A stretch of 64,000 bases of DNA from a virus. Taxonomy: Duplodnaviria; Caudoviricetes. The DNA lies in the IMG/VR virus record IMGVR_UViG_3300028569_001484, positions 28,166 through 92,165 of that record; one strand, 5' to 3'. The notes beneath the pieces were generated by a model. The model ran no database searches and was not told the DNA's origin. It worked only from the letters and a program-made list of their open reading frames with translations. Of this stretch, positions 6,454-62,267 are shown piece by piece. Within the stretch, counting starts at the first letter, position 1. The number at the start of each line of letters is the position of its first letter. The translations under genes were made by a program, and so were the position numbers.

Positions 6454-6474
6454 TTTCCAACGTTTTTTCCAACG
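6454..6474 (+). repeat. direct repeat TTTCCAACG x2 (putative operator, cassette 1)
   Basis: 6454-6462 and 6466-6474, directly before TATTTAT (6481) and the leader ATG (6495). Confidence 0.6.
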
Positions 6475-6494
6475 ATTTACTATTTATTAATGTT

Positions 6495-6650
6495 ATGGGT
6501 AGAAAGAAATTAAATAGAACACCAGATGAAATACGAGAACAAAATAGAAAACGATACGAACGATTCTACAGAAAAAATTGTAACAGAATCAGAAAAGAAA
6601 AACTTGAACGATATCACAACAAAGTGGACAAGACATTGCCCGAAATGTAA
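6495..6650 (+). CDS. MGRKK basic leader micro-protein (cassette 1)
   Basis: MGRKKLNRTPDEIREQNRKRYERFYRKNCNRIRKEKLERYHNKVDKTLPEM; homologous to five other leaders in the window. Confidence 0.75.
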   Translation: MGRKKLNRTPDEIREQNRKRYERFYRKNCNRIRKEKLERYHNKVDKTLPEM

Positions 6651-7429
6651 TAAGGAAATAATCTATAAAGATAAATATAACTGTTCTTATGCATCGTTAA
6701 AAAATACAAATTGTATGTCATGCAATGCTACAGGCAAAAAACACAGCGTGGAAACTATTGAAAAAATTAAAAATAAAAATATAAATAAAAAAGTATCTTT
6801 TGAAACCAGAGAAAAATTGTCAAAAATAAATACTGGAAAAAAATTATCGAATAACACTAGATTAAAAATAAAATCATCTTTAATAGGCAATAAAAGAATG
6901 CTTGGAAAACACCATACTACTAATACCAAACAAAAAATTTCTACGTCATTAAAAGGAAAAATGTGTGGGATTAAGAATCCGAGATATGGCAAAGTTGGAA
7001 CAAATAAAGGAAAAAAGTTTTCTTTAGAAACCAGACGGAAAATATCACAATCTCGTATGGGTAAAAAAGCATCGGAAGAAACAAAGAGAAAAATTCAGAG
7101 AATTGTTCTTAAAAAGAAAGTTAAAATCCGGAAGCATATTTTTTCCAGCATATAATGAAACCGCATGTTTGTATTTTGATTGGTTGAATAAATGGATGGG
7201 TTGGAAAGGTCGGTTTGCAACGAACGGTGGCGAATTTCAAATAGGCAATTATTTCGTTGATTATTACGAACCGGAATTAAATATTGTTATTGAATATGAT
7301 GAAAAACATCATTTTAAAGGGGGGGAACTAAAAGAAAAAGATGTTTTAAGAATGGAATACATTAAAAAAACTTTACATTGCAGGTTTTTCAGATATACTG
7401 AGAGTAACAATGTAATCTTAGAGTACTAA
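6526..7429 (+). CDS. NUMOD3-repeat + Vsr/DUF559-like homing endonuclease, frameshifted near 7089-7093
   Basis: CPKC...CMSC, repeated S.ETR.KIS motifs; ORF 7103..7429 has YFVDYY..IVIEYDEKHH; removing one A joins the two ORFs. Confidence 0.75.
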
Positions 7430-7432
7430 ATC

Positions 7433-10090
7433 ATGTATCAAAATATTTATATTTCACAAAAAGAAAAATTAGCCTATATTTGGGATGATAAAAAAGGTTT
7501 GGTAAAAATACCACTCCATAAAGGAGTATACGCATATAGAAAATCGACTAATGGTATATATAAAAGTATATACGGTGATAAATTAGAGAAAATTTATAAA
7601 TTCAATCCAAAAGACCCCAGTTTATTTGAAAGCGATGTTAAACTAGAAACTAGGTTTTTAATAGATTTGTACGAGGACAGTGACGAACCTTCTGAAGGAC
7701 ATCGTGTTGTGTATCTTGACATTGAAGTTAGTACCGAAGGTGGCTTTCCAAACGTAGAAGAAGCTGATAAAGAAATTACAGCTATTGCTATTTATGATAG
7801 TTGTACATCTAAATATACAGCTTTCATTTTGGATAAAGAACATAAGCTACAGGACTTCGTTAAAGAAAATGTAGAAGTACGTAGTTTTACAGATGAAGAT
7901 AGTCTATTGATGCACTTTCTTACCAAATGGGAAGAAATTCAACCTACTATTAGTACTGGTTGGAACAGTGATAACTTCGACATGCCGTATCTATTCCGTC
8001 GTATGAAAAATATCGTTGGTCCAAACAATGCAAAACGTTTGAGTCCAATTCAAGTTGCTTATATCAATGACTGGAATAAGAAAGTTATTGTAGCTGGGGT
8101 AACTCATTTGGATTATATGACTCTTTACAAGAAGCTTAATATTAAACAAGAAGCTAGTTATGCTCTTGGTGCTATTGGTAAAAAGATCGTGGGTATGGAA
8201 AAGATTGCCTATAAAGGTAGTTTGGATGATTTGTACAAAGCTGATATCAACAAGTATATTGAATATAACTTGAACGACGTACAAATCATTGTAGCACTAG
8301 AAAAGAAGTTACAGTTTATTGAATTGGCAAGGGCTATTTGTCACAAGGGTCACGTTCCATATGAATGGTATGAAATGAGTTCTCGTTTCATTGAAGGTGC
8401 TATTCTTATGTATCTACGTCGTAAAGGACAAGTCGCTAAAAATAAATCATTGGATGGCCGTGATGAATATGAAACTCAAATGGAAGATAATGAACAAGGT
8501 TTTGAGGGTGCTTATGTTAAAGCTCCTACTCCCGGTCGTTATGATTGGGTCTTTGACTTGGACCTTACATCAATGTATCCGAATATCATCATCAGTCTTA
8601 ACTTATCGCCTGAAACTAAAGTAGCAGTAATTAATAAGATTGAATATGATGATTCTTATGTAGAAGATCGCACCAAAGAAATTCGTGAGGATTATGAGAA
8701 TCTAGGTGATAGTGCTCAGAAGAAGACTCCATTTGCTCAATATCTTGAACAACGGTTGTACGCATTTAATGCTAGATTGTTTGCTCAAGACAAGATTGGC
8801 AAGTATCACGTTGGATCTACAGTTTATACCAATGATGAATTTAAACAGTTAATTACACAAACTAATTTGAGTGTTGCTAGTAATGGAGTAATGTGTAAAC
8901 AAGACAAGACTGGGGTTATTCCGGAAATTCTAGTAAAGTGGTTCGATGAACGTAAGGATCTTCGTAAACTTGCTAAAAAGCATGCAGATTTAAAAGAATG
9001 GGAAAAATATGAATTTTATGATGGTCGTCAAAAAGTACAAAAAGTATTACTTAATTCAATCTACGGTGTATTGGGTCTACCGATCTTTAGATTTTATGAC
9101 AAGGATAATGCGAGCGCTGTTACCATAACTGGTCAAGATATTATCAAATCTACTGGTAAGGCTATTAATGAATGTTTCAAACGTTCACTGAATGAGAAAG
9201 AAGGAGATTGGGTTATCTATACAGATACAGATAGTTGTTTTGCTAGTGCATTACCTATCATCAAAAAGAATATGCCTGATATCGATCTAAACGATGAAAA
9301 GGCAATGACTGAGGCTATTTTGAAAGTAACTGGTGATGTACAATCATTTGTTAATAAGTTTTATGATGTAATGGCAAAACGTTACTTCAATATTGAGAAA
9401 CATCGATTTGACGCAAAACAAGAAGTTATTGCCAAGACCAGTTTCTGGTTGGCTAAGAAACGTTATGCTCAGTTTATTATCAACAAAGCCGGTATTGAGT
9501 GTGATGAAATGGAAGTAAAGGGTATTGACGTAGTTCGTACATCATTTCCAATTAGGTTTCGTAAGTTTATGCAAAAGTTCTTGGATGATATGTTACGTAA
9601 ACTCCCAAAAGAGCAAATTGATGCTAGTATTCTTGAATTTAAGGATAAGATGTCTACTTATCCAGTTATTGAGATTGCAAAGAATACTAGTGTAAAGTTT
9701 AAGAGTCAAAATGGAGATAATGATTATAATCCAAAGACCAGACATCCATTTCAGTTTATGGATGGTACTCCAGCACAAGCTAAAGCAGCTTTGGCTTATA
9801 ATGATTTGTTGAAGACTTGGAAGTTAGACAAAGATGTACCTGAGATTTTCCACGGTCAAAAGATCAAGTGGGTATATCTAAAACAAAATCAATATGGCGT
9901 TGAAGGTATTGCTATGAAAGCTGATGGTACTGATCCTGATCGTATTATGGAGTTCATTGAACAATATGTAGACAGAAATGCTATGTATGAGCAAGAACTT
10001 AAAGGCAAGTTGTTAGACTTTTATAATGTGTTGAATTGGAGTTATCCAAATGAGACAGATGTTAAATTGGAAGAGTTTTTTAGTTTTTAA
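7433..10090 (+). CDS. polB: family B DNA polymerase (T4 gp43-like)
   Basis: ExoI DIE, ExoII GWNSDNFD, ExoIII YNLND, DLTSMYP, KVLLNSIYG, YTDTDS, KKRYA. Confidence 0.97.
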   Translation: MYQNIYISQKEKLAYIWDDKKGLVKIPLHKGVYAYRKSTNGIYKSIYGDKLEKIYKFNPKDPSLFESDVKLETRFLIDLYEDSDEPSEGHRVVYLDIEVSTEGGFPNVEEADKEITAIAIYDSCTSKYTAFILDKEHKLQDFVKENVEVRSFTDEDSLLMHFLTKWEEIQPTISTGWNSDNFDMPYLFRRMKNIVGPNNAKRLSPIQVAYINDWNKKVIVAGVTHLDYMTLYKKLNIKQEASYALGAIGKKIVGMEKIAYKGSLDDLYKADINKYIEYNLNDVQIIVALEKKLQFIELARAICHKGHVPYEWYEMSSRFIEGAILMYLRRKGQVAKNKSLDGRDEYETQMEDNEQGFEGAYVKAPTPGRYDWVFDLDLTSMYPNIIISLNLSPETKVAVINKIEYDDSYVEDRTKEIREDYENLGDSAQKKTPFAQYLEQRLYAFNARLFAQDKIGKYHVGSTVYTNDEFKQLITQTNLSVASNGVMCKQDKTGVIPEILVKWFDERKDLRKLAKKHADLKEWEKYEFYDGRQKVQKVLLNSIYGVLGLPIFRFYDKDNASAVTITGQDIIKSTGKAINECFKRSLNEKEGDWVIYTDTDSCFASALPIIKKNMPDIDLNDEKAMTEAILKVTGDVQSFVNKFYDVMAKRYFNIEKHRFDAKQEVIAKTSFWLAKKRYAQFIINKAGIECDEMEVKGIDVVRTSFPIRFRKFMQKFLDDMLRKLPKEQIDASILEFKDKMSTYPVIEIAKNTSVKFKSQNGDNDYNPKTRHPFQFMDGTPAQAKAALAYNDLLKTWKLDKDVPEIFHGQKIKWVYLKQNQYGVEGIAMKADGTDPDRIMEFIEQYVDRNAMYEQELKGKLLDFYNVLNWSYPNETDVKLEEFFSF

Positions 10091-10096
10091 AAAGTT

Positions 10097-11343: not shown

Positions 11344-11365
11344 TGTTTGGATTTTTTTGTTTGGA
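11344..11365 (+). repeat. direct repeat TGTTTGGA x2 (putative operator, cassette 2)
   Basis: 11344-11351 and 11358-11365 before TATATATA and the leader ATG 11395. Confidence 0.6.
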
Positions 11366-11394: not shown

Positions 11395-11556
11395 ATGGGG
11401 AGAAAGAAAAAATATGAAACGAAACAACAACTTATCAATGCAAAAAAAGAATGGCGTAAAAAACACTATTATAAAAAACAAAAATATTATCAAGAGCAAA
11501 GAATGCTTAGATATTGGGCGGATAAAAATTTGGACAAAAATTTGTCCTCAATGTAA
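11395..11556 (+). CDS. MGRKK basic leader micro-protein (cassette 2)
   Basis: MGRKKKYETKQQLINAKKEWRKKHYYKKQKYYQEQRMLRYW... Confidence 0.75.
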   Translation: MGRKKKYETKQQLINAKKEWRKKHYYKKQKYYQEQRMLRYWADKNLDKNLSSM

Positions 11557-12103: not shown

Positions 12104-12148
12104 AAATATTTTCTTGACTGTGGATCTTAGTTGAGGTATCATAATCTA

Positions 12149-18431: not shown

Positions 18432-19112
18432 TTAATTATTAGTTATGATAAAAGATTTTCCAAATGTAGCATACGTTTGATATTCAATATATCCCCATTT
18501 ATTTTGGTTATCAAAATAATCATAGAATGCTTTTTGTTCCCCTTTGTTTTTGTTTCCTTTAAAATTAAACCAATCGTCAAATAGTAATAAAGTACCTTCT
18601 TGTAATAAAGGAGTTATGCCTTGTAAAACAGTTTTGGTTGATGAATACAAATCACAGTCTATATGAATTAAAGCAGCTTTTTTATATATTGAAGGTATTG
18701 TTGCGATTGTAGTTGAATGGAATTCTCCGATTTCAATATTTGGTCTGGGTAAATTATATGTTTCAAATAATTTATAAACTACAGTTTCACTTACTTTTTC
18801 ACCAATTTTACACACTGGATGAAATGAATGATTAATATTAAATATTTTTTTTGTCCATCTAGGATGATCATCATTATCAGATAAACCTTCAAATGAATCA
18901 AATCCAATTATTTGTCTATTAAAATTTACTTTGTGTATACTTTCCTTGCTTTTTTGATGAAAGTATGATAACAAGGCTAAACTTCGGCCTGTATATACAC
19001 CGAACTCTAATATATCTCCTTCAATCAATTCATAATCTATAAATCGAATTGCTGTTTTGAAAAAGGAAGATCTTACGTCGAAATCTATTAAAACATTAAT
19101 GTCGCTTTCCAT
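18432..19112 (-). CDS. TylF/MycF-type O-methyltransferase
   Basis: GDILEFGVYTG, GFDSFEGL, IHIDCDLY, LFDDW. Confidence 0.88.
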   Translation of the reverse strand: MESDINVLIDFDVRSSFFKTAIRFIDYELIEGDILEFGVYTGRSLALLSYFHQKSKESIHKVNFNRQIIGFDSFEGLSDNDDHPRWTKKIFNINHSFHPVCKIGEKVSETVVYKLFETYNLPRPNIEIGEFHSTTIATIPSIYKKAALIHIDCDLYSSTKTVLQGITPLLQEGTLLLFDDWFNFKGNKNKGEQKAFYDYFDNQNKWGYIEYQTYATFGKSFIITNN

Positions 19113-29526: not shown

Positions 29527-30454
29527 AGTTCATATCTCCATCGTTAAGTAAATCCAAGTTAATTTTAATTAGTTGATTACTATTTTCATTATATCTATAG
29601 AATTTACATTTTAAATGATTAATAATTTCAACCATTCTTTTATAATCTTTTTGTTTCAAATTACCATTAATATCATAATGATGTGGTTCATCATACTCTA
29701 TAACTATGTTTTTTTCTACATCATAAGCATCTAAAAAATAACACAATATTCGTTTTTCACCGCCATTTAATGCGTGTTGTAAATTCCAATTATTTTTCTC
29801 ATTCAATTTATCAAAATAACTACATGCATATGAATTAAAGTTAGGACATATTTTGCCAAATTTTTCAATTCTTTTTAATATACTTTCTTTGGCTTTAATA
29901 GACAATTTTCTTCTAGTTTCGTCAGATGTTGTCCTTTTATTTTTTAATTGAGATTCAGATATTTTTTTTCTCACATCTAATCTTTTTGCAGGATTTAATC
30001 CTCCAATTTTACCTAAAGACATTTTTAGTTTAGTTTCAGTAGTTAACTTTTTACCTTTATGTGAATTACTTATTTTTTCTTTTGTTTTATTATTTAATGT
30101 TCTACCAATCATCCATTTTCCGGTACCGTTTTTTTTATGAATAATACTCAATTTAATTTTTTGTTCATCTGTCATTGGAGACAAAATTCTTCCTTTTAAT
30201 ACACAATTTTTACAAAGAACACTTTTTTTAGTAGCTCGTTTTAACAATTTTAGAGATTTATATGATTGCGTATTATTACACTTAGGACACGACTTTTGAT
30301 GTATGTTTTTGTTTCCAATATCTGTCCATTCGTTTTTTATTACATTTTTCTTTGTTTCGTTGATAGTATCGTTTGGAACGGATATTAGATTGTTCTCTAA
30401 CTTCGTCTTCTGTTCTATTAAGTTTTTTTCTTCCCATAAATTGTCTTGGTTCAT
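29516..30454 (-). CDS. NUMOD3 + Vsr/DUF559-like homing endonuclease (cassette 3)
   Basis: CPKC...CKNC, NUMOD3-like repeats, YFLDAYD..IVIEYDEPHH; ends NLDLLNDGD like the upstream helicase. Confidence 0.8.
   Translation of the reverse strand: MNQDNLWEEKNLIEQKTKLENNLISVPNDTINETKKNVIKNEWTDIGNKNIHQKSCPKCNNTQSYKSLKLLKRATKKSVLCKNCVLKGRILSPMTDEQKIKLSIIHKKNGTGKWMIGRTLNNKTKEKISNSHKGKKLTTETKLKMSLGKIGGLNPAKRLDVRKKISESQLKNKRTTSDETRRKLSIKAKESILKRIEKFGKICPNFNSYACSYFDKLNEKNNWNLQHALNGGEKRILCYFLDAYDVEKNIVIEYDEPHHYDINGNLKQKDYKRMVEIINHLKCKFYRYNENSNQLIKINLDLLNDGDMNYVK
30282..30437 (-). CDS. MGRKK basic leader micro-protein (cassette 3)
   Basis: MGRKKLNRTEDEVREQSNIRSKRYYQRNKEKCNKKRMDRYWKQKHTSKVVS. Confidence 0.78.
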   Translation of the reverse strand: MGRKKLNRTEDEVREQSNIRSKRYYQRNKEKCNKKRMDRYWKQKHTSKVVS

Positions 30455-30480
30455 ATACTCATATATATATATATATATAT

Positions 30481-30504
30481 ATAGTGAAAACATAAATAGT
30501 GAAA
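30481..30504 (-). repeat. direct repeat TTTCACTAT x2 (putative operator, cassette 3)
   Basis: ATAGTGAAA at 30481 and 30496 on + strand, 15-bp period. Confidence 0.6.
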
Positions 30505-30508: not shown

Positions 30509-33148
30509 TTATTTATTAATAATTGACCGATTTAAATCTCCATCATTCAACAAATCTAAATTTGTAAGTTTTTGGTTTACAGTGTTACACACTCTTTCTT
30601 CAATGGTACCCGAAACAAAAACGATTTTTTGTATAGATTTGCTCTTGGCGCCATCTCGCCAAACTCTTCCCATTGACTGTCTCATATTAACAGCTGAATA
30701 TGACGGACTTATTAAAGATATTCTAGGATGTTTTCCGGTTATATCGTGGAGCGAAATTCCGGCACCTCCTGCTGCAATATTAATTAATATAACTCTTTGT
30801 TTATCAGATTGAAAATCGTCAATGTTTTTTTGCCGTTCTTTGTCTTTCACAATACCGTTTACTATACATTTAGTATTTAATCTTTCTGCTAAAGCGTTAA
30901 TACTTTCTGTAAAGTTTAAAAATACAGCGACACTCATATTGTTTTCTAAACTTTCTTCTATCATTTCTATGAATAATGGTATTTTTACCATTTCTATAGA
31001 CTGACGCATTCTCAATATTGCTGTTAGTTCAGTGCTCTTTTTATCTTTCTTGAGAAGTTTTTCAATCTTCAACAACTCAAGTTGCATTTCTTCATAAGCT
31101 GAATTGATTTTATCTTGGTCTTCTTTATCCATTTCATAACATTCAGCGATAATTTGACTTTCTGGGAAGTTAGGAATGGAATCACGATTGAGACGAACGC
31201 CTCTGTTAACAAATATGTCATTGCTTAGTTTCTTTAAAGCATCTACATTACCACGAAACTCTAATCCAAATCTACCTTTTACAACACCGTGTGCATATGC
31301 CCATTCATAATACTGTTTGTTGTTCTTGAACAGTTGAATACATTGTCCTACTGTGCGTAGTTCAAGTGGATTGGTAGCCATAGTAGCACTACAAAACAAC
31401 ATCTTGTAACCTTGTTTGAGTGCTGCCATACACATTTCACTATTTTTGGTCTTGGCATTCTTTAACTTTTGTGCTTCGTCCCAAACGATTAAAGTATTTT
31501 TGGGAACTTTCCAGACGAATTCTTTACGGTGGGTATCTCTACGTTTTACATATGATGCAAACATATTGTCTGTTTTGCCAGTACGTAAAGATTCATAGTT
31601 AGTAATACCTACACATTTACCCCACATCTTAAAGTGATTTTTAATAACCCGTTTCCAACTTTCTTTAACCGCTTTAGGACATACAATCATAATGTCCATA
31701 TTCAATTCTCTAGCTACAGCTGTAGCAGTATATGTTTTGCCTGTATTATGAGTAACTGTAAAATCACCAAGAAGAAATCTACCGTCGCCATCAAGTGAAA
31801 ATCCATAAAAATCGTCATTTGACATAGATTCGACCGTGAATCCGACAACCAATACATCTTTCTTTTGATTTCTTATGTTTGATTTTTTTCTTTGGATACG
31901 TGTTGGAATTGATTCACAATTTCCGCTTATTGAAACGTTATAATAATCTCCCACAACGCCATTGTTTGTACATTTCTTTTTGACACATTTAATATATGCG
32001 GCAAAACCTAAAGATCGTGATATAAACGCAACGTCGTTTGCAAGTTGATATGATTTACTAGTAAAATCAAAACCTCCGTTTCTATAATAACCATCAGAAT
32101 CCAATAAACCAGCAAGTATTTCTAATCTTTGATTTTTGTTACAAATTTTATATTCTGTAGGAATAAATCTATCTTCACATTTGATTGGTAATAATCCTAC
32201 ATCTCGTAAATATTTAAATAATGTAGGTGCATTTGTTATTCGTTTTGTTATTGTTTCATTGGTGTTTCCCAATAACCAATTATTTTTATGAGATTCATCA
32301 ATAATTGATTGCCAACAGATATCATCTATTGATGTGAACGTAATGATAGATTTCTGTGATAAACCACCGTCGCCTAACAATAACCCCATAAAATATGGAG
32401 AAAATGGATGATTCTTGGTCGCCCAATTATCAACTGCTACACGAAATAATTTCATATGTCGCTTCACTGACAATGGTAATTTTAGATAATCTGATACTTT
32501 GATGTCATAGATCTCATTGGAGTTATACCCACCAATTGATTTTTTAGTAGAATGTAATTTGGTTATTTTGACTGTCAAAATGTGATTAATATTGACAGTG
32601 AAGGAATCTCCTTTTGTGGGAATAATTTTCACCATCTGTTCATTTCCAGAACACAATGATGTTACTTTTTGAGGTCCATTCCACCCCATTATCACATCAT
32701 TTACCACAATATTTTCTACCAATTTTATGGTACCGTCAAACATCAATATAGTCTGTCCTTTTGCATGACATCCAACGTCACTTCCATCTACAGCCGCCCC
32801 CCACTTTTTAATAGAAGATACTATCTTACTTACCGCTCCAACTTGCCAAGGACGCAATCCATCTGGAGTTTTGACTTCGTATAATGGAAGCGTTTCATCT
32901 ACCTTTTGTTTGGGTTTTTTTGGATCTTTGAATAATGTTGGATTATCATTGGTCTGTGTAAGAACCCAGTCTTGTTCTCTTTTAACGACTCCGTACCCTT
33001 TGCTTTTCAACATCAATTTGTTTACCTTCCAATAAGCAAAGAACTGATTGAGGTAAGATGGGGTAATTACCCATTCACGTTGAAACGTTACGTCTCCGTT
33101 TTTTTCTACTTGAACTGGATCTGACCACTTGATATCCAAGTTAATCAT
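30509..33148 (-). CDS. SF2 (SNF2/HARP-like) helicase with intein
   Basis: Spliced Walker A SDVG|TGKT, WDEAQ, SAT, GGAGISL, QSMGRVWR. Confidence 0.9.
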   Translation of the reverse strand: MINLDIKWSDPVQVEKNGDVTFQREWVITPSYLNQFFAYWKVNKLMLKSKGYGVVKREQDWVLTQTNDNPTLFKDPKKPKQKVDETLPLYEVKTPDGLRPWQVGAVSKIVSSIKKWGAAVDGSDVGCHAKGQTILMFDGTIKLVENIVVNDVIMGWNGPQKVTSLCSGNEQMVKIIPTKGDSFTVNINHILTVKITKLHSTKKSIGGYNSNEIYDIKVSDYLKLPLSVKRHMKLFRVAVDNWATKNHPFSPYFMGLLLGDGGLSQKSIITFTSIDDICWQSIIDESHKNNWLLGNTNETITKRITNAPTLFKYLRDVGLLPIKCEDRFIPTEYKICNKNQRLEILAGLLDSDGYYRNGGFDFTSKSYQLANDVAFISRSLGFAAYIKCVKKKCTNNGVVGDYYNVSISGNCESIPTRIQRKKSNIRNQKKDVLVVGFTVESMSNDDFYGFSLDGDGRFLLGDFTVTHNTGKTYTATAVARELNMDIMIVCPKAVKESWKRVIKNHFKMWGKCVGITNYESLRTGKTDNMFASYVKRRDTHRKEFVWKVPKNTLIVWDEAQKLKNAKTKNSEMCMAALKQGYKMLFCSATMATNPLELRTVGQCIQLFKNNKQYYEWAYAHGVVKGRFGLEFRGNVDALKKLSNDIFVNRGVRLNRDSIPNFPESQIIAECYEMDKEDQDKINSAYEEMQLELLKIEKLLKKDKKSTELTAILRMRQSIEMVKIPLFIEMIEESLENNMSVAVFLNFTESINALAERLNTKCIVNGIVKDKERQKNIDDFQSDKQRVILINIAAGGAGISLHDITGKHPRISLISPSYSAVNMRQSMGRVWRDGAKSKSIQKIVFVSGTIEERVCNTVNQKLTNLDLLNDGDLNRSIINK
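31745..32770 (-). mobile_element. intein (342 aa) with LAGLIDADG endonuclease in the helicase P-loop
   Basis: CHAKG start, MGLLLGDG and LAGLLDSDG, ends FTVTHN/T. Confidence 0.93.
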
Positions 33149-35016: not shown

Positions 35017-35334
35017 CTATACACCTCTTTTTATAAAAGTCAACACATTTTCTTCGGGTTCTAAACTTTCGTCAAGTCTATCAATTGCCATTTGTAAACT
35101 GCTAATTTCAAACCATTCATTTTTTTTACTTCTGGCAAAATGCTTCATTTGTTCGTGTATATCTTTTTCCGCACTATAACAGTCTGGGTGTTCTATATAA
35201 TACTCTATTTTGTAATTTCTTAATGGACTGCTTGTTTGATATGTACGCAGTCTGGATTTAATGTCTTCAGTTACTCCTATTTTTATCCAACCTGGGAATG
35301 ATTTGTTTGTTATTATATATATGTATCCTCGCAT
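35017..35334 (-). CDS. T5orf172/GIY-YIG-like protein
   Basis: GYIYII, WIKIG.T, RL..YQTSSP, AE..IH, EWF. Confidence 0.8.
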   Translation of the reverse strand: MRGYIYIITNKSFPGWIKIGVTEDIKSRLRTYQTSSPLRNYKIEYYIEHPDCYSAEKDIHEQMKHFARSKKNEWFEISSLQMAIDRLDESLEPEENVLTFIKRGV

Positions 35335-35351
35335 ATAAATATATATGTATA

Positions 35352-35383
35352 TTGTAATATTTTTGTAATATTTTTGTAATATT
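35352..35383 (+). repeat. direct repeat TTGTAATATT x3 (putative operator, cassette 4)
   Basis: 11-bp period, ends in TATTTAT before the leader ATG 35391. Confidence 0.65.
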
Positions 35384-35390
35384 TATTTTT

Positions 35391-35552
35391 ATGGGGAGAA
35401 AAAAAATATATGAAAATGAAACCAATGTCGAAAAACTTAAACGGTATAGACGGTATCGAATGCAATCTTATTGGAGAAACATCGACAAAGAAAGATTTAA
35501 AGCACGTGAGAGATATAAAAACATCAGTCGGAATTTACAAGATAATAAATAA
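35391..35552 (+). CDS. MGRKK basic leader micro-protein (cassette 4)
   Basis: MGRKKIYENETNVEKLKRYRRYRMQSYWRNIDKERFKARERYKNISRNLQDNK. Confidence 0.72.
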   Translation: MGRKKIYENETNVEKLKRYRRYRMQSYWRNIDKERFKARERYKNISRNLQDNK

Positions 35553-36186
35553 GATTAATGGAAAATATTATGTGGGTAGTTCAAAAAACATTGATGGCAA
35601 TTTTGGAAGATGGTATAAACATAAATATTATTTGAATAAAAACAAACATCCTAATAGTCATTTACAAAATGCGTGGAATGCGTACGGTGAAAATAATTTT
35701 GAATGGACTATAGTAGATTTTTGTGAAGAATCTGATTTACTGAAAATAGAACAAAAATATTTAGACGATGTTAAATTAAATAGAAATTTATGTTATAACA
35801 AAACATTTTTGGCCAGCAGAGTAGAGTGGACCGATGAAATGAAACAAAAAATTTCAAAACTTCATAAAGGCAAACAATTAAGTGAAAATCATAAACAAAT
35901 ATTAAAAAATAAAAGATTGAAAATGATAGGTAAAAATGCGCCTAACTATGGAAATAGACATTCAGATGAAACAAAGAATATATATAGTAAACAAAGAAAA
36001 GGATTTAAAAACCCATCTTATGATGAAACAGTATATATTTTAGAAAATCAAGTTACAAAAAATATTATAAAAGATACTATGTATAATTTGAGACAAAAAT
36101 ATAATCTAAACAGAAAATGTTTATCACAATTAATAAATGGACATATAAAATCATATCGCGGGTTTATATGTTTAAATTTAAAATAA
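35410..36186 (+). CDS. GIY-YIG homing endonuclease with NUMOD3
   Basis: GIYKIINKINGKYYVGSS, R, HLQNAW, EQ.YLD, YN; APNYGNRHSDETK. Confidence 0.9.
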   Translation: MKMKPMSKNLNGIDGIECNLIGETSTKKDLKHVRDIKTSVGIYKIINKINGKYYVGSSKNIDGNFGRWYKHKYYLNKNKHPNSHLQNAWNAYGENNFEWTIVDFCEESDLLKIEQKYLDDVKLNRNLCYNKTFLASRVEWTDEMKQKISKLHKGKQLSENHKQILKNKRLKMIGKNAPNYGNRHSDETKNIYSKQRKGFKNPSYDETVYILENQVTKNIIKDTMYNLRQKYNLNRKCLSQLINGHIKSYRGFICLNLK

Positions 36187-53637: not shown

Positions 53638-54039
53638 TTAATAAATCTTTAGTCCTAGAGATTTTCTCCCTTTACCTTTATTTTTTGCTCTGCAAGTATC
53701 AAGTTGTGAGTCACAATTAGGACATATCAAACGAAAATTGGAATAAGAATTGTTATTAGCATATCCGTCAATGTGATCTACCCATAACCTTATAGGTTTA
53801 TTATTCCAATTATTTCCGTCTATACCACACAGTGAACATTTATTTCCATAATCTTCACATAACATTGAATATATTAATGGTCTCGTAGGCACTTTTGGAT
53901 AAGAACCATTTCTAATTTGATTTTTAATTGTAGTGGTTTGATAATGTTGTTGACATTTATTACTACAATAAATTCCTTTTGACACAGATGAATGATATGT
54001 AAATATTTTATTGCATGTTTTACAATTTGAATTAATCAT
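53638..54039 (-). CDS. HNH homing endonuclease (cassette 5)
   Basis: CKTC..YCSNKC, CSLCG, LWVDHIDG..NN...NFRLICPNCDSQ. Confidence 0.88.
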   Translation of the reverse strand: MINSNCKTCNKIFTYHSSVSKGIYCSNKCQQHYQTTTIKNQIRNGSYPKVPTRPLIYSMLCEDYGNKCSLCGIDGNNWNNKPIRLWVDHIDGYANNNSYSNFRLICPNCDSQLDTCRAKNKGKGRKSLGLKIY

Positions 54040-54179
54040 TTTTCCCCTTTCTTTTTATAATATCTTTCTAATGATTGTTCTTTTTTAACTTGTTGATTTT
54101 TGAAATAATAACGCATTTGTCTTTCACGACGAGCGTTTAACTTCTCGTCTTCAGTTTTATACTTTTGATTTCTTCCCAT
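54036..54179 (-). CDS. MGR-type basic leader micro-protein (cassette 5)
   Basis: MGRNQKYKTEDEKLNARRERQMRYYFKNQQVKKEQSLERYYKKKGEK; TGA overlaps the HNH ATG (ATGA). Confidence 0.78.
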   Translation of the reverse strand: MGRNQKYKTEDEKLNARRERQMRYYFKNQQVKKEQSLERYYKKKGEK

Positions 54180-54205: not shown

Positions 54206-54229
54206 AAAAGTAGAAAAAAAGTAGAAAAA
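54206..54229 (-). repeat. direct repeat TTTTTCTACTTTT x2 (putative operator, cassette 5)
   Basis: AAAAGTAGAAAAA with 11-bp period on + strand. Confidence 0.55.
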
Positions 54230-56835: not shown

Positions 56836-56842
56836 ATTATTT

Positions 56843-58344: not shown

Positions 58345-58556
58345 TGTTGAAGTTATATGTTAACGGTGTTTATGATAATCAAGTGAGTTATACAGGAAAT
58401 ATTCAAGACACATATCCTATTCGATTAGGAAACGGTGCATTTGGTGATGGACCTTTTCCAGGCAATATATACATTGCAAGTGTATACAATAGAGCATTAA
58501 GTGCAACTGAAGTATTACAAAATTATAATGCTACTAAGAGTAGATTTGGTTTATAA
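58345..58556 (+). pseudogene. 3' fragment of a LamG/ConA-like gene
   Basis: LKLYVNG...YNRALSATEVLQNYNATKSRFGL, paralog of the next gene's C-terminus; 5' part missing. Confidence 0.75.
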
Positions 58557-58567
58557 TTATAGTACAT

Positions 58568-59248
58568 ATGTCAACTAAATATTCCCCACAAATAGTTACA
58601 TCAGGATTAGTATTAGCTTTAGACGCTGCTAATAGAAACAGTTATCCAAGAACAGGCACATCGTGGTATGATTTAAGCGGTAATGCAAATACCGGTACAC
58701 TAACTAATGGGCCCACTTTTAGTAATACTAAAAACGGTGTTATTGTATTTGACGGAGTAGATGATTATGTATCTATCCCCAACAATAGTAATTTTAATAA
58801 CGGAAACAATATTACGGTCGAAGCTTGGGTACTATGTACAGATTGGTCAACATACATACATCCTATGATAGTTGCTAAAGGAATAAATGTTGAGTGGATA
58901 TTATGGAAATCAAATGATACGGGTGTTGTTGGTAAGTTAGGATGGCGGGGACTTGGGACCGCTTATACGACTACAAGTTTACCAAACAATACGTGGGTTC
59001 AGTGTGTTGGTAGTATTGGAAGTGCTGGACAAAAAGTTTATTTAAACGGAGTATTGGAGTCAACTGTAGGTAATACAACATTTACCAGCGGAAATATTAA
59101 TGTTACAATAGCTACAGGACTAGTTACTGGATCTCCATCTAATCTATTGGGTGCTAATGTTGCAATTACTAGAATTTACAATAGACAACTAACCGATAAT
59201 CAAGTATTACAGAATTACAACGCAACAAAAATAAGATTTGGATTATAA
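58568..59248 (+). CDS. LamG/concanavalin A-like virion protein
   Basis: GLVLALDAAN..SY.GT.WYDLSG, FDGVDDY, YLNG, IYNR.L...VLQNYNATK.RFGL. Confidence 0.85.
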   Translation: MSTKYSPQIVTSGLVLALDAANRNSYPRTGTSWYDLSGNANTGTLTNGPTFSNTKNGVIVFDGVDDYVSIPNNSNFNNGNNITVEAWVLCTDWSTYIHPMIVAKGINVEWILWKSNDTGVVGKLGWRGLGTAYTTTSLPNNTWVQCVGSIGSAGQKVYLNGVLESTVGNTTFTSGNINVTIATGLVTGSPSNLLGANVAITRIYNRQLTDNQVLQNYNATKIRFGL

Positions 59249-59251
59249 CAT

Positions 59252-59644
59252 ATGGCAGATCCGGCAACATTTGGTGGTCAATGTGGAACATGGGGTACAG
59301 TATGTAATCTTTGGAGTGAATGTATTACCGAGGTTGTGGATATCATTGAAGGCGGTGCACGGGATCCGGCGTTTTGGTTGGATCATCCATTTGATTTATA
59401 TAATAAAGATTTAGAATTAGAGAAGTATCAACAAGAACAGCCACAAAAACAAAAGCGGTTAATTGAAATATATGTAAAGTGTGCTAATAAAAAATACAAT
59501 AGAACTATTGTTGTGCCTGAAAATAAAGTAAAAGTGAATGTACGAGATGTGGAGTTTATACTCAAGACTCTAAATGAAGTTGGGGTAGATATTAAAAATA
59601 TAAGAAAATATACAGATAACGATTTGAACAACTTGCTCACATAA
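59252..59644 (+). CDS. hypothetical protein
   Basis: Operon ORF. Confidence 0.6.
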   Translation: MADPATFGGQCGTWGTVCNLWSECITEVVDIIEGGARDPAFWLDHPFDLYNKDLELEKYQQEQPQKQKRLIEIYVKCANKKYNRTIVVPENKVKVNVRDVEFILKTLNEVGVDIKNIRKYTDNDLNNLLT

Positions 59645-59706
59645 CTAAAAATTAGTTATTAATTAACCAACCTATTATATATTTATAAGTATAAAATTTT
59701 ATTAAA

Positions 59707-60258
59707 ATGAGCGCTTATACCATATATCTTGACAAAGAAGAAACATTTGAATGTGAGGTGTCAATCAAAAATGCCTCAATCAAAGACAGTTCAGCACGTT
59801 TAATCATTGAAAGTGATGATATTAATTTAGTATTCTTTGGTACTGTATCAAAAGATACAATTACTGTACCTATTAAAAGTTTAAAGAAATATTTTACCGA
59901 AAGTGATAAAGCCACTATCAAATTGGAAGTAATCGTTGAAAACAATTTGGTTACCCCATGGGAAAGTGAATTGTTGTTTGATAGCTATAATAAAGTAGAA
60001 ATCAAAGAAATCAAGAATGTCAAGACTAAGCCATTAATCGAAATTAAACTTAAAGAAGATAAAAAACAACACTTGGAAGCTAAAACCAAGGAAATAGAAC
60101 AAAAAGTTGTTACAGAATCTAAGAAGTCTGTTAAATCATTAAAACAAAAACTTTTAGAATCTGTTAATGATCAAATAAAGAAAATTCAAGTTGATGGAAA
60201 ATTAAATAAGGAAGAAAAGAAAGAACTTATTAAAAAGCTGCTATCAAACGATTTATAA
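59707..60258 (+). CDS. hypothetical (probable structural) protein
   Basis: TATTTATA upstream; Ig-like beta pattern, TPWES. Confidence 0.6.
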   Translation: MSAYTIYLDKEETFECEVSIKNASIKDSSARLIIESDDINLVFFGTVSKDTITVPIKSLKKYFTESDKATIKLEVIVENNLVTPWESELLFDSYNKVEIKEIKNVKTKPLIEIKLKEDKKQHLEAKTKEIEQKVVTESKKSVKSLKQKLLESVNDQIKKIQVDGKLNKEEKKELIKKLLSNDL

Positions 60259-60273
60259 TTAATATAATATGAT

Positions 60274-61212
60274 ATGCCAGTTTTTCCATCACAGAATCTT
60301 AATACTCAAAAAATATGTGAGAGTTATCCACGGTTATTACAAATATACAGTGGTAGCCTAGTTTTAGATGGTACTGGAAGTTTAAAGCAGTTTCTTAATG
60401 TTACCAGTAGTTATTCTCTTACAAGTAGTTATGCTAGTAATTTTGGTAATAGCATAACTCAAAGCTTTAGTGCAAGTAATATATGGACATTTAATCACAA
60501 TCTAGGTGATAAATATGTTCTTATACAAACAGTTGATACAAACGATAATCAACTAATACCAGAAGTAATTAACCTATTTGACGATAATACCGCAATAATA
60601 GGTTTTAGTGTTCCAACTGCTGGTACAGCAATCGCTACAAGAGGTGGTATAAGAAAATTAATAATAAGCAGTAGTTATGGTTATTATAATCTAAATACTG
60701 GTAGTACCTATCCTATAACAAGCAGTTGGGCTTTATATGCATTAAATGGTGGAACTAATATATACACTGGTAGTACATATCCTATAACAGGTAGTTGGTC
60801 TATAAATGCTGTTAGTGCAAGTTATGCTCCGTGTAATTGTCCATTATTACAAACAGGCAGTTATTATCCTATAACTGCTAGTTGGGCAATAAATACACAA
60901 ACGAGTAGTTATATACAAGTTACCGGTGTAAGTTATCCGGTAAGAAGAGTATATAACAATTATACTATTGTAAGAACCACGGATTATACAATATTATGTG
61001 ATGCTACTAGTGGATCGTTTAATGTCAAATTACCGAATCCCGTGGGTAACACTAATATTTATAATATAAAAAAAATAGATACTAGTGGACATCGAATAAA
61101 TGTAACTGTAACTAACGCTTCTTATATAGACTATGAACTTACACAAAGCATTGCACACAAAGGAACAAACATGATGGTACAAAGTGATGGTTCACAATAC
61201 TGGGTCTTGTAA
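60274..61212 (+). CDS. tail fibre-like virion protein
   Basis: W.FNHNLG domain, TGSTYPIT(S/G/A)SWA repeats, C-terminal ILCDAT.G...LP...IKK.D...SDG..YW domain. Confidence 0.65.
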   Translation: MPVFPSQNLNTQKICESYPRLLQIYSGSLVLDGTGSLKQFLNVTSSYSLTSSYASNFGNSITQSFSASNIWTFNHNLGDKYVLIQTVDTNDNQLIPEVINLFDDNTAIIGFSVPTAGTAIATRGGIRKLIISSSYGYYNLNTGSTYPITSSWALYALNGGTNIYTGSTYPITGSWSINAVSASYAPCNCPLLQTGSYYPITASWAINTQTSSYIQVTGVSYPVRRVYNNYTIVRTTDYTILCDATSGSFNVKLPNPVGNTNIYNIKKIDTSGHRINVTVTNASYIDYELTQSIAHKGTNMMVQSDGSQYWVL

Positions 61213-62229
61213 AAACCTTATTACCCATCCTTTATGACTTTTAATTTTCTTGTTAATAAGTCGAGACATTTGAAAACTACACAATTTATAATTTGTTATT
61301 AAATCATAACGATTACAATGTATAGTTAGATTTAATTTATCGTTACAAAATATATATAGATTTTTATCATAATTACCATTATTAACTCCAGATCTTTTTT
61401 CAACTTGATTAATTCTATATTCTTTATTTTCCCACAATTTTTTGACAGAACTGCTTATTTGATTTTTCAAACTTGGATTAGAAAAATATCTTTTTTTGGC
61501 AGATTCACTTAATTTTTTTCGTTGATCATCTGTACGAGGCTTTCTAATAATATTATCTTTATTTGCAAATCGTTTTTTTTGACTAATACTTTGTTTTATT
61601 TTTAAATCGTTATTTTGCCAAGCTAATTTATGACTTAACTTTTGTTTTTTAATGTAATCGTCACTTTTCCATTTTTCTTTAAATGAATCACTACATCTTT
61701 TTCTATAATCGTTATTTTGCCATAGTTTTTTGTGAGAGTCTTTCATTTTTAATTTACTTTCTTCGTTATGAGTTTTATTTAACATGGGACTCAATGTAAA
61801 ATAACAAATGTTATAATTTTTATCCTGATGTTGTTTACACACATTCAAGTAAATCTGTTCGATTGTTAACAAGAAAATTATAGGCAAGTTTCTAACTATC
61901 AGAAACTCAAAATTTTGTTCTCCATATTGATTCCACTCCAGTTGTAAATTTTTATTTACGTGTGTATTTTTGTTAAGTTGGTATTTATGTTGTTTATTCC
62001 ATCTATACCAAAAGTTTTTTGTACTTCCTACATAATATTTACCATTAATTTTATTTATTATTTTGTATATTCCGCTTGTTTTTGGAATTATAATATCTTT
62101 CCATTCGTTTTTTATTACATTTTTCTTTGTTTCGTTGGTAGTATCGTTTGGATCGGATATTAGATTGTTCTTTAAGTTCGTCGATTGTTCTATTGAGTTT
62201 TTTTCTTCCCATAAATTTATTTCTTTCAT
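61192..62229 (-). CDS. GIY-YIG homing endonuclease (cassette 6)
   Basis: SGIYKIINKINGKYYVGST, EQIYL, YN, helical K..W....Y repeats. Confidence 0.88.
   Translation of the reverse strand: MKEINLWEEKNSIEQSTNLKNNLISDPNDTTNETKKNVIKNEWKDIIIPKTSGIYKIINKINGKYYVGSTKNFWYRWNKQHKYQLNKNTHVNKNLQLEWNQYGEQNFEFLIVRNLPIIFLLTIEQIYLNVCKQHQDKNYNICYFTLSPMLNKTHNEESKLKMKDSHKKLWQNNDYRKRCSDSFKEKWKSDDYIKKQKLSHKLAWQNNDLKIKQSISQKKRFANKDNIIRKPRTDDQRKKLSESAKKRYFSNPSLKNQISSSVKKLWENKEYRINQVEKRSGVNNGNYDKNLYIFCNDKLNLTIHCNRYDLITNYKLCSFQMSRLINKKIKSHKGWVIRFLQDPVL
62051..62212 (-). CDS. MGRKK basic leader micro-protein (cassette 6)
   Basis: MGRKKLNRTIDELKEQSNIRSKRYYQRNKEKCNKKRMERYYNSKNKRNIQNNK. Confidence 0.78.
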   Translation of the reverse strand: MGRKKLNRTIDELKEQSNIRSKRYYQRNKEKCNKKRMERYYNSKNKRNIQNNK

Positions 62230-62246
62230 ACATATATAAATATAAA

Positions 62247-62267
62247 GTGAAAACATAAAACGTGAAA
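62247..62267 (-). repeat. direct repeat TTTCAC x2 (putative operator, cassette 6)
   Basis: GTGAAA at 62247 and 62262, 15-bp period, near-identical to cassette 3. Confidence 0.6.

What the first reader, a model, noticed from the sequence alone, without database searches (positions are those of the whole stretch)
6454..62267. Six-copy cassette: repeat + promoter + conserved MGRKK micro-protein + swappable endonuclease overprinted in the +1 frame
Seen: six endonuclease genes are each preceded by a homologous 47-53 aa basic ORF with consensus MGR(K/N)K...(R/W)..RYY..N...R(M/L)xRY. Leader starts are 6495+, 11395+, 30437-, 35391+, 54179- and 62212-. Four are missed by the ORF track. The partner nucleases belong to unrelated folds: Vsr/DUF559-like (2), HNH (2), GIY-YIG (2). 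In five cassettes the nuclease is in the +1 frame of the leader, has an ATG within 17-31 nt of the leader ATG, and keeps the +1 frame open across about 35-45 AT-rich codons; the recognisable nuclease domain begins just after the conserved (A/C)GA-TAT (RY). In cassette 5 the nuclease has its own ATGA-coupled start and the +1 frame is closed early, which acts as an internal control that the leader is a real stand-alone protein. Known: phage homing endonucleases are throttled by late promoters and RBS-hiding hairpins, and I-TevI autorepresses; I do not know of a dedicated overprinted partner peptide. Inference: the leader is a DNA-binding autorepressor or nuclease inhibitor, and competing starts (or a +1 shift or AUH start near AGA-UAU) keep nuclease output low.
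Basis: partly seen in the sequence, partly recalled or inferred. Interest (0 to 1): 0.88.

Follow-up and report, generated by a model that had tools for sequence, protein, structure and literature searches.

The report
Micro-regulator overprinted on homing endonuclease genes
A lake-phage genome carries six mobile nuclease cassettes, and each one also encodes, in a second reading frame of the same DNA, a conserved 50-residue protein that probably binds a cassette-specific repeat in its own promoter and so controls the nuclease.

Summary
All six leaders sit at the stated coordinates. In five of them the nuclease ORF lies in the +1 frame (f1) and overlaps the whole leader.

The same layout recurs in 66 further distinct viral-metagenome loci. 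In 66 of 72 loci an f1 ORF of at least 150 aa crosses the leader stop.

- **Leader is a real gene.** The leader frame is under purifying selection (pN/pS 0.32, against 0.91 and 1.06 in the other frames).
- **f1 is kept open.** f1 is not conserved as protein. It has 0.005 stops per codon, against 0.075 in the +1 frame of the nuclease bodies. In 65 of 72 loci it has an ATG within -60 to +48 nt of the leader ATG.
- **Overprinting, not frameshift.** These are two overprinted genes, not a +1 frameshift fusion or an assembly indel.

New here: each cassette has two copies of a 5-8 nt word, mostly 15 nt apart, ending about 16 nt before the first ATG. The word differs between cassettes, and it co-varies with leader residues 17 and 21, which lie on one face of helix 1.

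Best reading (confidence 0.55): the leader is a two-helix DNA-binding autoregulator of its own promoter. It works like the C proteins of restriction-modification systems but is not a member of that family. Translation, DNA binding and the sign of regulation are all untested.

The parts
6456..6474 (+). Cassette 1 operator-like word pair: TCCAACG twice, period 12
   Evidence: this is the only pair of the word with 10-17 nt spacing in the window; p=0.005 against shuffles.
6495..6650 (+). Cassette 1 leader ORF, 51 aa
6526..7155 (+). Cassette 1 nuclease ORF, first part, in f1. It has a Zn-ribbon-like CxxC (my reading of the sequence) and NUMOD3 repeats. Its ATG is at +31.
7103..7429 (+). Cassette 1 nuclease, second part (weakly DUF559/Vsr-like). 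It is in another frame, so the gene is split by a frameshift.
   Evidence: both parts align in order to the single cassette-3 ORF. DUF559 E 0.0021.
11345..11365 (+). Cassette 2 word pair: GTTTGGA twice, period 14
11395..11556 (+). Cassette 2 leader ORF, 53 aa
11414..12103 (+). Cassette 2 nuclease ORF in f1, ATG at +19. It has NUMOD3. The HNH-like C-terminus is my own reading of the sequence only.
30484..30504 (-). Cassette 3 word pair: TTTCAC twice, period 15
30282..30437 (-). Cassette 3 leader ORF, 51 aa
29516..30454 (-). Cassette 3 nuclease ORF in f1, from the ATG at -17. The frame is open from 30493.
35353..35382 (+). Cassette 4 words: TGTAATAT three times, period 11
   Evidence: an independent contig has one 11-nt unit fewer.
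35391..35552 (+). Cassette 4 leader ORF, 53 aa
35410..36186 (+). Cassette 4 GIY-YIG nuclease ORF in f1, ATG at +19
54210..54227 (-). Cassette 5 word pair: TTTCTAC twice, period 11
54036..54179 (-). Cassette 5 leader ORF, 47 aa, not overprinted
53638..54039 (-). Cassette 5 HNH nuclease, with its own ATG in an ATGA overlap with the leader stop
62247..62267 (-). Cassette 6 word pair: TTTCAC twice, period 15. This is the same word as in cassette 3.
62051..62212 (-). Cassette 6 leader ORF, 53 aa
61192..62229 (-). Cassette 6 GIY-YIG nuclease ORF in f1, from the ATG at -17

Best explanation
Each cassette is a self-contained, self-regulated homing-endonuclease expression unit. It has four parts.

1. 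A promoter-like element of the form TAYTTAT lies 4-7 nt before the first ATG. The same element sits before several ordinary genes of this phage.
2. Two copies of a cassette-specific 5-8 nt word precede it.
3. A conserved 45-58 aa basic protein (the leader) is encoded there. It is predicted to have an N-terminal arm and two helices.
4. A homing endonuclease is encoded whose ORF starts within about 50 nt of the leader ATG, in the +1 frame, and runs through the whole leader gene. The nuclease therefore carries a 40-55 aa N-terminal extension of unconstrained sequence.

Shown by sequence statistics: both frames are maintained. The leader is maintained as a protein. The +1 frame is maintained only as an open frame with a start codon.

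Inferred:
- The leader binds the two words in its own promoter, using one face of helix 1 (residues about 13/14, 17, 21, 24).
- It thereby sets transcription of the bicistronic, possibly leaderless, message.
- The two nearby start codons share out ribosomes between regulator and nuclease.

The circuit would hold nuclease output steady as phage genome copies rise. Several cassettes in one genome would stay independent of each other because their words differ. Whether the leader represses, activates or does both is not known. I favour repression at high dose.
For: **Leader is a protein.**
- Invariant residues carry synonymous variation. For example G2, T9, Y25 and Y40 have entropy only at codon position 3.
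- pN/pS is 0.32 in f0, against 0.91 in f1 and 1.06 in f2. This comes from 170 pairs of 70-97% identity among 71 gap-free sequences.
- 379 clusters match at E<=1e-3. Nearly all of the best 150 are stand-alone proteins of 44-100 aa.

**f1 is kept open.**
- There are 11 f1 stops in 2305 leader codons (0.0048 per codon). The +1 frame of the nuclease bodies in the same loci has 0.0745 per codon, and the leader's +2 frame has 0.106 per codon.
- Observed stops are 11, against 45 expected with the leaders' own codon usage and 112 expected with window-gene usage.
- Leu TTA+TTG make up 25% in leaders against 67% in window genes. Val GTA+GTG make up 0% against 49%.
- Arg after Met is CGN in 16 of 16 cases, while half of all leader Arg codons are AGR.

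**f1 has a start codon.**
- An upstream ATG open into the leader exists in f1 in 55 of 72 loci, against 4 of 72 in f0 and 8 of 72 in f2.
- 65 of 72 loci have an f1 ATG at -60 to +48 that is open to the junction.
- Loci without an upstream ATG have an internal one in 22 of 29 cases, against 8 of 43 for loci with an upstream ATG (Fisher p=1.9e-6).

**Leader can stand alone.** In L007, L066, L071, L062 and cassette 5, f1 is closed upstream and the nuclease has its own ATG at the junction.

**The words.**
- The best direct repeat beats 95% of shuffles in 40 of 72 loci.
- The second copy ends a median of 16 nt before the first ATG, whether that ATG belongs to the leader (28 loci) or to the nuclease (32 loci).
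- In the window, each word pair with 10-17 nt spacing occurs only at its own cassette, with one exception: a further TTTCAC pair at 18785/18797 inside a coding region.

**Word and leader co-vary.**
- Mutual information between word class and alignment column peaks at columns 17 (z 15.9) and 21 (z 16.1), then at 16 and 26.
- Equally variable interleaved columns 10, 15 and 19 give z 3.1, -0.7 and 1.5.
- Among pairs with helix-2 identity <=0.4, identity at the word-linked columns is 0.57 for the same word and 0.29 for different words. At control columns it is 0.53 and 0.55.
- Six newly fetched loci whose leaders resembled a trained type carried the matching word, 6 of 6.

**The word follows the leader, not the nuclease.** Cassettes 3 and 6 share the word and about 90% identical DNA from the first word to the RY codons only. 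Their nucleases show no similarity beyond the overprinted 46 residues.

**Fold.** The AF2 model has pLDDT 89.9, with an arm at 1-9 and helices at 10-27 and 29-49.

**Assemblies and mobility.**
- Independent assemblies from other studies cover both leader-nuclease junctions that were examined, with no indel.
- One contig lacks cassette 4 altogether.

**Promoter element.** TAYTTAT also lies 4-9 nt before the ATG of six ordinary ORFs of at least 90 aa (19744, 48942, 50751, 62332, 63618 and 38870-).

**Known analogue.** C.PvuII has two operators 15 bp apart, a leaderless C-activated mRNA, and overlapping C and R ORFs (PMC2175313, passages read; PMC2997769, abstract read).
Against: - No RNA, ribosome or protein data exist for any locus. 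Translation of either frame is inferred.
- DNA binding is inferred only from covariation between a word and a gene less than 100 nt away, so co-inheritance contributes to the signal. The loci are related to each other, and label shuffles ignore that.
- Word classes were curated by hand. 61 of 72 loci entered the mutual-information test. Ten had no clear class and cassette 3 dropped out through a mapping slip.
- The word-linked columns were chosen on the same data.
- The six 'held-out' loci are relatives of training loci.
- Automated repeat detection was significant in only 40 of 72 loci.
- The words resemble variants of one template (roughly YNACG), so they could be -35-like promoter elements and not operators.
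- The transcription start is unknown. If it lies upstream of the words, an RNA target becomes possible.
- No structural or sequence relative with known function was found.
- A few in-frame leader-nuclease fusions exist in the databases.
- The expected stop counts using window-gene usage apply one phage's codon usage to many phages. The within-locus control does not have this weakness.
Confidence: 0.55

Rival explanations
1. The leader is the N-terminal domain of the nuclease. Ribosomes start at the leader ATG and shift +1 near the RY codons, or RNA polymerase slips at the A-run of codons 3-5. The result is one fusion protein.
For: - A few database proteins carry the leader in frame with a nuclease. 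P0041 has three leader-like stretches followed by what I read as an HNH-like C-terminus, though Pfam found no family in it. P0067 is joined to HNH and P0051 to NUMOD3/AP2.
- L028 and L030 read through in frame.
- AAA-A/G codon contexts occur after RY in the window copies.
Against: - A shift at the junction would not need f1 to be open upstream. Yet f1 stops are 15-fold depleted through the leader, and an f1 ATG is present in 65 of 72 loci with compensation.
- In L034 and L080 the GIY strand overlaps the RY codons. No shared slip motif was seen by eye in the junction print-out, which was cut in the middle so part of the loci was not seen.
- Many loci have an f1 stop at +16, right after the A-run, so slippage there cannot be general.
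- L028 is a decayed remnant with an internal deletion. P0137 switches frame inside the leader.
- Only 1 of 72 f1 proteins contains a leader-like stretch, with E 6e-5.
Confidence: 0.07
2. The leader is a protein partner of the nuclease, acting as an inhibitor, antitoxin-like brake or chaperone, and not as a DNA-binding regulator.
For: The leader is always co-encoded with a nuclease, so the two must be made together.
Against: - One leader type serves unrelated nucleases. Cassettes 3 and 6 are an example.
- Across loci the partners are GIY-YIG in 32 of 70, Vsr or DUF559 in 5 of 70 and HNH_3 in 1 of 70, plus two that I read as Hef-like from their sequence (L062, L076).
- This model does not explain why the upstream word changes together with leader residues 17 and 21.
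- Leaders persist next to decayed nucleases such as L028, L037, L078 and cassette 1.
Confidence: 0.08
3. The leader binds RNA. The words lie in the 5' untranslated region of a longer transcript, and the leader is a translational repressor of the bicistronic message.
For: - The transcription start is unknown.
- The protein is very basic.
- Word-residue covariation fits RNA recognition as well as DNA recognition.
Against: - A terminator-like hairpin ends 21 nt before the first word of cassette 2. A similar hairpin is visible by eye before cassette 5. That leaves little room for a promoter upstream of the words.
- The TAYTTAT element between the words and the ATG also precedes ordinary genes at the same short distance, as a promoter core would.
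Confidence: 0.1
4. The words are only variant -35-like promoter boxes, duplicated by slippage. The leader has some other function, and the covariation is plain linkage.
For: - Words share a loose template.
- The repeat copy number varies, with 3 against 2 units at cassette 4.
- The leader and the words are tightly linked physically.
Against: - Linkage predicts similar association for all variable columns. Instead the association is concentrated at columns 16, 17, 21 and 26, with interleaved columns near background.
- Both copies of the word change together across loci.
Confidence: 0.15

Closest known systems
C (controller) proteins of type II restriction-modification systems, e.g. C.PvuII (PMC2175313, passages read; PMC2997769, abstract read)
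   Same: - A small regulator gene lies directly upstream of, co-transcribed with and overlapping an endonuclease gene.
- Two operator copies lie just before the regulator's start, with 15 bp centre-to-centre spacing.
- The strong regulated transcript is leaderless.
- The regulation is autogenous.
   Different: - C proteins are helix-turn-helix dimers on palindromic boxes. Here there is a 50-aa two-helix protein with no Pfam match and direct, non-palindromic words.
- The overlap here is the whole regulator gene (about 150 nt), not about 20 nt.
- The partner here is a homing endonuclease in a phage. No methyltransferase was looked for.
I-TevI transcriptional autorepression (review PMC2988022, passages read)
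   Same: A phage homing endonuclease gene is held down by a protein bound to an operator that overlaps its own promoter.
   Different: In T4 the nuclease itself is the repressor, and the operator resembles its homing site. Here the word follows the separate micro-protein and not the nuclease.
T4 seg/mob genes overlapping upstream ORFs (PMC2988022, passages read)
   Same: Free-standing endonuclease ORFs overlap the preceding ORF, which is read as a way to limit translation.
   Different: Those overlaps are 1-24 bp with ordinary neighbouring genes. Here a dedicated, conserved micro-gene is overlapped in full.
Overprinted phage genes (general concept; reviews PMC8227390 and PMC6195259 seen in search listing only)
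   Same: Two proteins are read from two frames of one DNA stretch. One frame is conserved, and the other is constrained mainly to stay open.
   Different: Here the conserved frame is the short one. The long frame uses the overlap only as an unconstrained N-terminal extension. The module is shared among unrelated nuclease families.

Membership tests
C (controller) proteins of R-M systems | Helix-turn-helix (Xre-like) DNA-binding fold | tested here: not met
   The AF2 model is an arm plus two long helices. No Pfam family matched five leaders at E<=0.1 or P0002 at E<=1. No PDB or BFVD fold match was found.
C (controller) proteins of R-M systems | Two operators about 15 bp apart immediately upstream of the regulator gene | tested here: met
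   The period is 15 in most loci and 11-14 in the rest. The second copy ends a median of 16 nt before the first ATG.
C (controller) proteins of R-M systems | Palindromic C-boxes | tested here: not met
   The words are direct repeats. Only the GTCG-type words are near-palindromic.
C (controller) proteins of R-M systems | Endonuclease gene overlapping and depending on the regulator's promoter | tested here: inconclusive
   The overlap is present and far larger than in R-M systems. Dependence on the promoter was not testable.
C (controller) proteins of R-M systems | Partner methyltransferase | not tested
   Flanking genes that I scanned are replication and other phage genes. No systematic search was made.
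Free-standing homing endonuclease genes | Recognised nuclease and DNA-binding modules | tested here: met
   Of 70 downstream ORFs, 32 match GIY-YIG, 32 match NUMOD3, 3 match Vsr, 2 match DUF559 and 1 matches HNH_3. PHROG homing-endonuclease families match cassettes 4, 5 and 6. About half of the 70 had no Pfam hit at 1e-3.
Free-standing homing endonuclease genes | Presence or absence between related genomes | tested here: met
   One contig of run X8 replaces 35278-36185 by 37 nt. This is a single contig laid at 85% likeness, so the support is weak. Leader copies number 2 to 12 in five viral contigs.
Free-standing homing endonuclease genes | Site-specific cleavage and homing | not testable with these tools
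   Needs enzyme assays or phage crosses.
Programmed +1 ribosomal frameshift genes | Conserved shift site at the frame junction, with the new frame needed only downstream of it | tested here: not met
   No shared slip motif was seen by eye in the junction print-out, which was cut in the middle so part of the loci was not seen. f1 is kept open and has an ATG from the start of the leader.
I-TevI-type autorepression by the nuclease itself | The operator is recognised by the nuclease's own DNA-binding domain | tested here: not met
   Cassettes 3 and 6 share the word pair but have unrelated nuclease bodies.
Overprinted gene pairs | Both frames maintained by selection | tested here: met
   f0 has pN/pS 0.32. 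f1 shows stop depletion and start-codon compensation.
Overprinted gene pairs | Both products made | not testable with these tools
   No RNA holder was listed. No proteomics data are available.

The most novel reading that the evidence does not exclude
The leaders are a new family of roughly 50-residue, two-helix DNA-binding proteins with a simple, readable recognition code. Residues on one helix face, chiefly 17 and 21, specify a 5-7 bp word. Phages use them as mutually orthogonal autoregulators, so that up to a dozen homing-endonuclease cassettes can live in one genome without cross-talk. Regulator and nuclease are read from two frames of one, possibly leaderless, message whose first ATG may belong to either gene.
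Probability: 0.4. Interest if true: 0.9.

Novelty: new variant of a known kind. Interest (0 to 1): 0.8.

Why it matters
- **Regulation of selfish nucleases.** How free-standing homing endonucleases are kept harmless to their own phage is largely unsolved. The T4 review says the translational controls of most seg and mob genes are not known (PMC2988022, passages read). A dedicated, portable micro-regulator shared by at least three nuclease folds would be a general answer for a large group of aquatic phages.
- **Annotation.** The family has no Pfam or PHROG entry, and gene callers suppress it because it lies inside a longer ORF. It is therefore systematically missing from annotation.
- **Tools.** If the residue-to-word relation holds, it would give a set of very small natural DNA-binding modules with different specificities. 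These would be useful as orthogonal repressors.
- **Overprinting.** This is a clean natural case in which the short frame is the conserved one.

Tried and rejected
- **Frameshift fusion.** Rejected as the general mechanism, for the reasons given under the first rival.
- **Assembly indel.** Rejected. 66 distinct metagenome loci show the same frame relation. Contigs from other studies cover the cassette-3 and cassette-4 junctions without indels.
- **L028/L030 in-frame form.** This is a decayed nuclease remnant.
- **Fold searches.** Searches of the leader model against PDB and BFVD gave 0 matches. A profile search of PDB sequences gave one chance hit at E 0.7.
- **ESM Atlas.** Only unnamed viral clusters came back. 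An AT-hook-bearing cluster at 0.89 is no more than a lead.
- **Cultured phages (INPHARED).** There was no near DNA match and no tblastn match to one leader. The low-complexity filter may have masked the query.
- **Sigma-70 consensus scan.** 35 sites were found against 31 expected, so it is uninformative.
- **Leader plus cassette-3 nuclease complex prediction.** The verdict was 'no answer'. It is not used as evidence either way.
- **RNA.** No RNA holder was listed for the stretch searched.
- **Literature.** Five searches found no paper describing this arrangement. 'Homing endonuclease' together with 'overprinting' returned 0 papers. Subscription journals and supplementary files were not searched.
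- **Automated word extraction.** It failed or mis-set the window in some loci, among them cassettes 3 and 6. Those words were read.

Full report
**What is there.** The window is AT-rich (about 31% G+C) and carries a T4-like replication module. Family-B DNA polymerase lies at 7433-10090, with its best cultured relative at 41% identity. A clamp-loader-like AAA protein lies at 12131. There is no near match among cultured phages, and no whole genome is held for the window. The same DNA occurs in lake-water and other aquatic metagenomes from 13 studies.

In five cassettes the nuclease ORF is in the +1 frame (f1) and overlaps the whole leader. Its f1 ATG lies at +31, +19, -17, +19 and -17. Cassette 5 has an ATGA-coupled nuclease in the other frame.

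**It is a widespread family.** A degenerate pattern scan of IMG/VR found 97 relatives, of which 80 loci were kept. After removing identical copies, 66 loci plus the six window copies give 72.
- Leaders are 45-58 aa in 71 of 72 loci. In 66 of 72 an f1 ORF of at least 150 aa crosses the leader stop.
- The six exceptions are four decayed or short copies (L028, L037, L066, L078), one locus cut by the contig end (L071), and cassette 5.
- A profile search of 1.84 billion representatives found 379 clusters at E<=1e-3. Nearly all of the best 150 are stand-alone proteins of 44-100 aa.
- 120 hits in the second database are all unnamed or 'hypothetical', apart from three automatic names that look spurious, and none has a Pfam domain.
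- Neither Pfam nor PHROGs knows the leader.
- Five viral contigs hold 2, 2, 3, 6 and 12 copies.
- Of 70 downstream ORFs, 32 match GIY-YIG, 32 NUMOD3, 3 Vsr, 2 DUF559 and 1 HNH_3. About half have no Pfam hit at 1e-3.

**Which frames are real.** The leader frame is protein-coding. Invariant residues vary only at third codon positions, and pN/pS is 0.32, against 0.91 in f1 and 1.06 in f2. f1 is not conserved as protein, but it is kept open.
- There are 11 stops in 2305 leader codons (0.0048 per codon). The +1 frame of the nuclease bodies of the same loci has 0.0745 per codon, and the leader's +2 frame has 0.106 per codon.
- Codon choice shows how this is achieved. Leu TTA+TTG fall from 67% to 25%, and Val GTA+GTG from 49% to 0%. 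Arg after Met is CGN in 16 of 16 cases, although half of all leader Arg codons are AGR.
- f1 also has a start. An upstream ATG open into the leader occurs in f1 in 55 of 72 loci, against 4 and 8 of 72 in the other frames.
- 65 of 72 loci have an f1 ATG at -60 to +48 that is open to the junction. Loci lacking an upstream ATG have an internal one in 22 of 29 cases, against 8 of 43 (p=1.9e-6).

So the nuclease is most simply read from its own ATG near the leader's. It then carries a 40-55 aa N-terminal extension that family profiles do not cover.

**Why not a frameshift fusion or an artefact.**
- A shift at the RY junction would not require f1 to be open or to have a start upstream.
- In L034 and L080 the GIY strand overlaps the RY codons. 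I saw no common slip motif in the junction print-out, which was cut in the middle, so part of the loci was not inspected.
- Many loci have an f1 stop right after the A-run of codons 3-5.
- In L007, L066, L071, L062 and cassette 5, f1 is closed and the nuclease has its own ATG at the junction. The leader therefore functions as a separate gene.
- The in-frame L028 form is a deletion remnant.
- A few in-frame fusions do exist in the databases: P0041, P0051, P0067 and P0137. The leader fold can therefore serve as an N-terminal module, but these are a small minority of the 150 best hits.
- Independent contigs from other studies cover the cassette-3 and cassette-4 junctions without indels.

**The upstream repeat.** Every cassette has two copies of a short word, three in cassette 4. 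The period is usually 15 nt and otherwise 11-14 nt. A TAYTTAT element follows, and then the first ATG after 4-7 nt.
- The second copy ends a median of 16 nt before the first ATG, whether that ATG is the leader's (28 loci) or the nuclease's (32 loci), among 60 loci with a clear word.
- The best repeat beats 95% of shuffles in 40 of 72 loci, despite an imperfect search window.
- In the window, each word pair with that spacing is found only at its own cassette. The one exception is an extra TTTCAC pair inside a coding region at 18785.
- TAYTTAT also lies 4-9 nt before the ATG of six ordinary ORFs of at least 90 aa. It therefore looks like a general promoter core or start-region element of this phage, while the words are the cassette-specific part.
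- A terminator-like hairpin ends 21 nt before the first word of cassette 2.

**Word and leader change together.** I assigned 62 loci by hand to nine word classes, and 61 of them entered the test.
- Mutual information with the leader alignment peaks at columns 17 (z 15.9) and 21 (z 16.1), then at 16 and 26.
- Interleaved columns of equal variability (10, 15, 19) stay near background, and helix 2 is intermediate.
- The stronger columns lie about one helical turn apart on helix 1 of a confident model (pLDDT 89.9; arm 1-9, helices 10-27 and 29-49).
- Typical pairings are S21 with TCAC, A21 with TGAC, K17 and D21 with GTCG, N17 and Q21 with TAACG, Y21 with CAACG, L16 and L21 with TAATG, and R21 M22 S24 with GTAA.
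- With helix-2 identity held low, pairs sharing a word share 0.57 of the linked columns, against 0.29 for pairs with different words. Control columns give 0.53 and 0.55. The linked columns were chosen on the same data, so this is illustration, not an independent test.
- Fourteen further loci were fetched from three contigs. Six of them had leaders resembling a trained type, and all six carried the matching word. Others showed new words or variant N-termini.
- The word follows the leader and not the nuclease. Cassettes 3 and 6 share DNA at about 90% identity only from the first word to the RY codons. Their nucleases are unrelated past the overprinted 46 residues.

**Mechanism proposed.**
- Shown: a conserved micro-gene, an overprinted nuclease ORF with its own start, a cassette-specific repeat at a fixed distance from the first ATG, and covariation of that repeat with one helix face.
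- Inferred: the leader binds the words and regulates its own bicistronic transcript, the short distance to the first ATG means a leaderless or nearly leaderless message, and the two close start codons apportion ribosomes.
- The closest working analogue is the C-protein circuit of restriction-modification systems. That circuit has two operators 15 bp apart, a leaderless C-activated transcript, and C and R ORFs that overlap, with R depending on the C promoter (PMC2175313, passages read; PMC2997769, abstract read).
- The leader is not a member of that family. It has no helix-turn-helix, the repeats are direct and not palindromic, and the whole gene is overlapped.
- T4's I-TevI represses its own promoter, but it does so with the nuclease itself (PMC2988022, passages read). 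Here the operator tracks a separate protein.

**Limits.** Nothing here shows translation, binding or the sign of regulation. Linkage between the words and a gene less than 100 nt away inflates covariation. The non-monotonic, helix-periodic pattern argues against pure linkage but does not exclude it. Word classes were curated by hand. Supplementary files of papers were not seen.

**Verdict.** The most likely reading is an overprinted, self-regulated homing-endonuclease cassette with a new micro-regulator family. I place it as a new variant of a known kind of circuit. Interest is 0.8.

Noticed in passing
window 30509-33148 (-), insert about 31742-32774: The 879-aa SNF2-type helicase carries an intein-like insert. 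Hom_end_hint matches residues 127-222 and LAGLIDADG_3 matches residues 340-394. One contig of run X8 skips 1033 nt here, with 7 other letters in its place.
   Followed up: partly
window 7040-7200: The cassette-1 nuclease is split into two ORFs in different frames. Both align in order to the single cassette-3 ORF. This could be a decaying gene, an assembly error or recoding. The relative L001 has its C-terminal domain in one frame.
   Followed up: partly
window 35278-36185: A contig of run X8 lacks all of cassette 4 and has 37 other letters instead. The left edge lies inside the 5' end of the neighbouring T5orf172-domain ORF at 35017-35334.
   Followed up: partly
window 35352-35385: The 11-nt operator unit of cassette 4 is present three times here. 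An independent contig has 11 nt fewer.
   Followed up: no
window 19744, 48942, 50751, 62332, 63618 (+) and 38870 (-): A TAYTTAT element lies 4-9 nt before the ATG of ordinary genes. This suggests a phage-wide promoter or start-region type with very short or no leaders.
   Followed up: partly
L089, L090, L092 (contigs G002 and G001): These leader relatives have other N-termini, starting MKKKEY or MPKRN in place of MGRKK. A GIY-YIG ORF is again overprinted in another frame.
   Followed up: no
G002 (353,772-bp viral contig): There are twelve leader matches in one genome rated complete by CheckV. Two have a stop inside the match.
   Followed up: partly
window 30455-30485 (-): A long TA dinucleotide run lies between the second word and the nuclease ATG of cassette 3. 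The otherwise homologous cassette 6 lacks it.
   Followed up: no
window 18785-18803 (+): An extra TTTCAC pair, period 12, lies inside a coding region. It is probably chance.
   Followed up: partly
L062 and L076: The downstream ORFs begin with a motif that I recall as typical of Hef-like homing endonucleases. No tool confirmed this. If it is right, it would be a fourth nuclease family behind the same leader.
   Followed up: no
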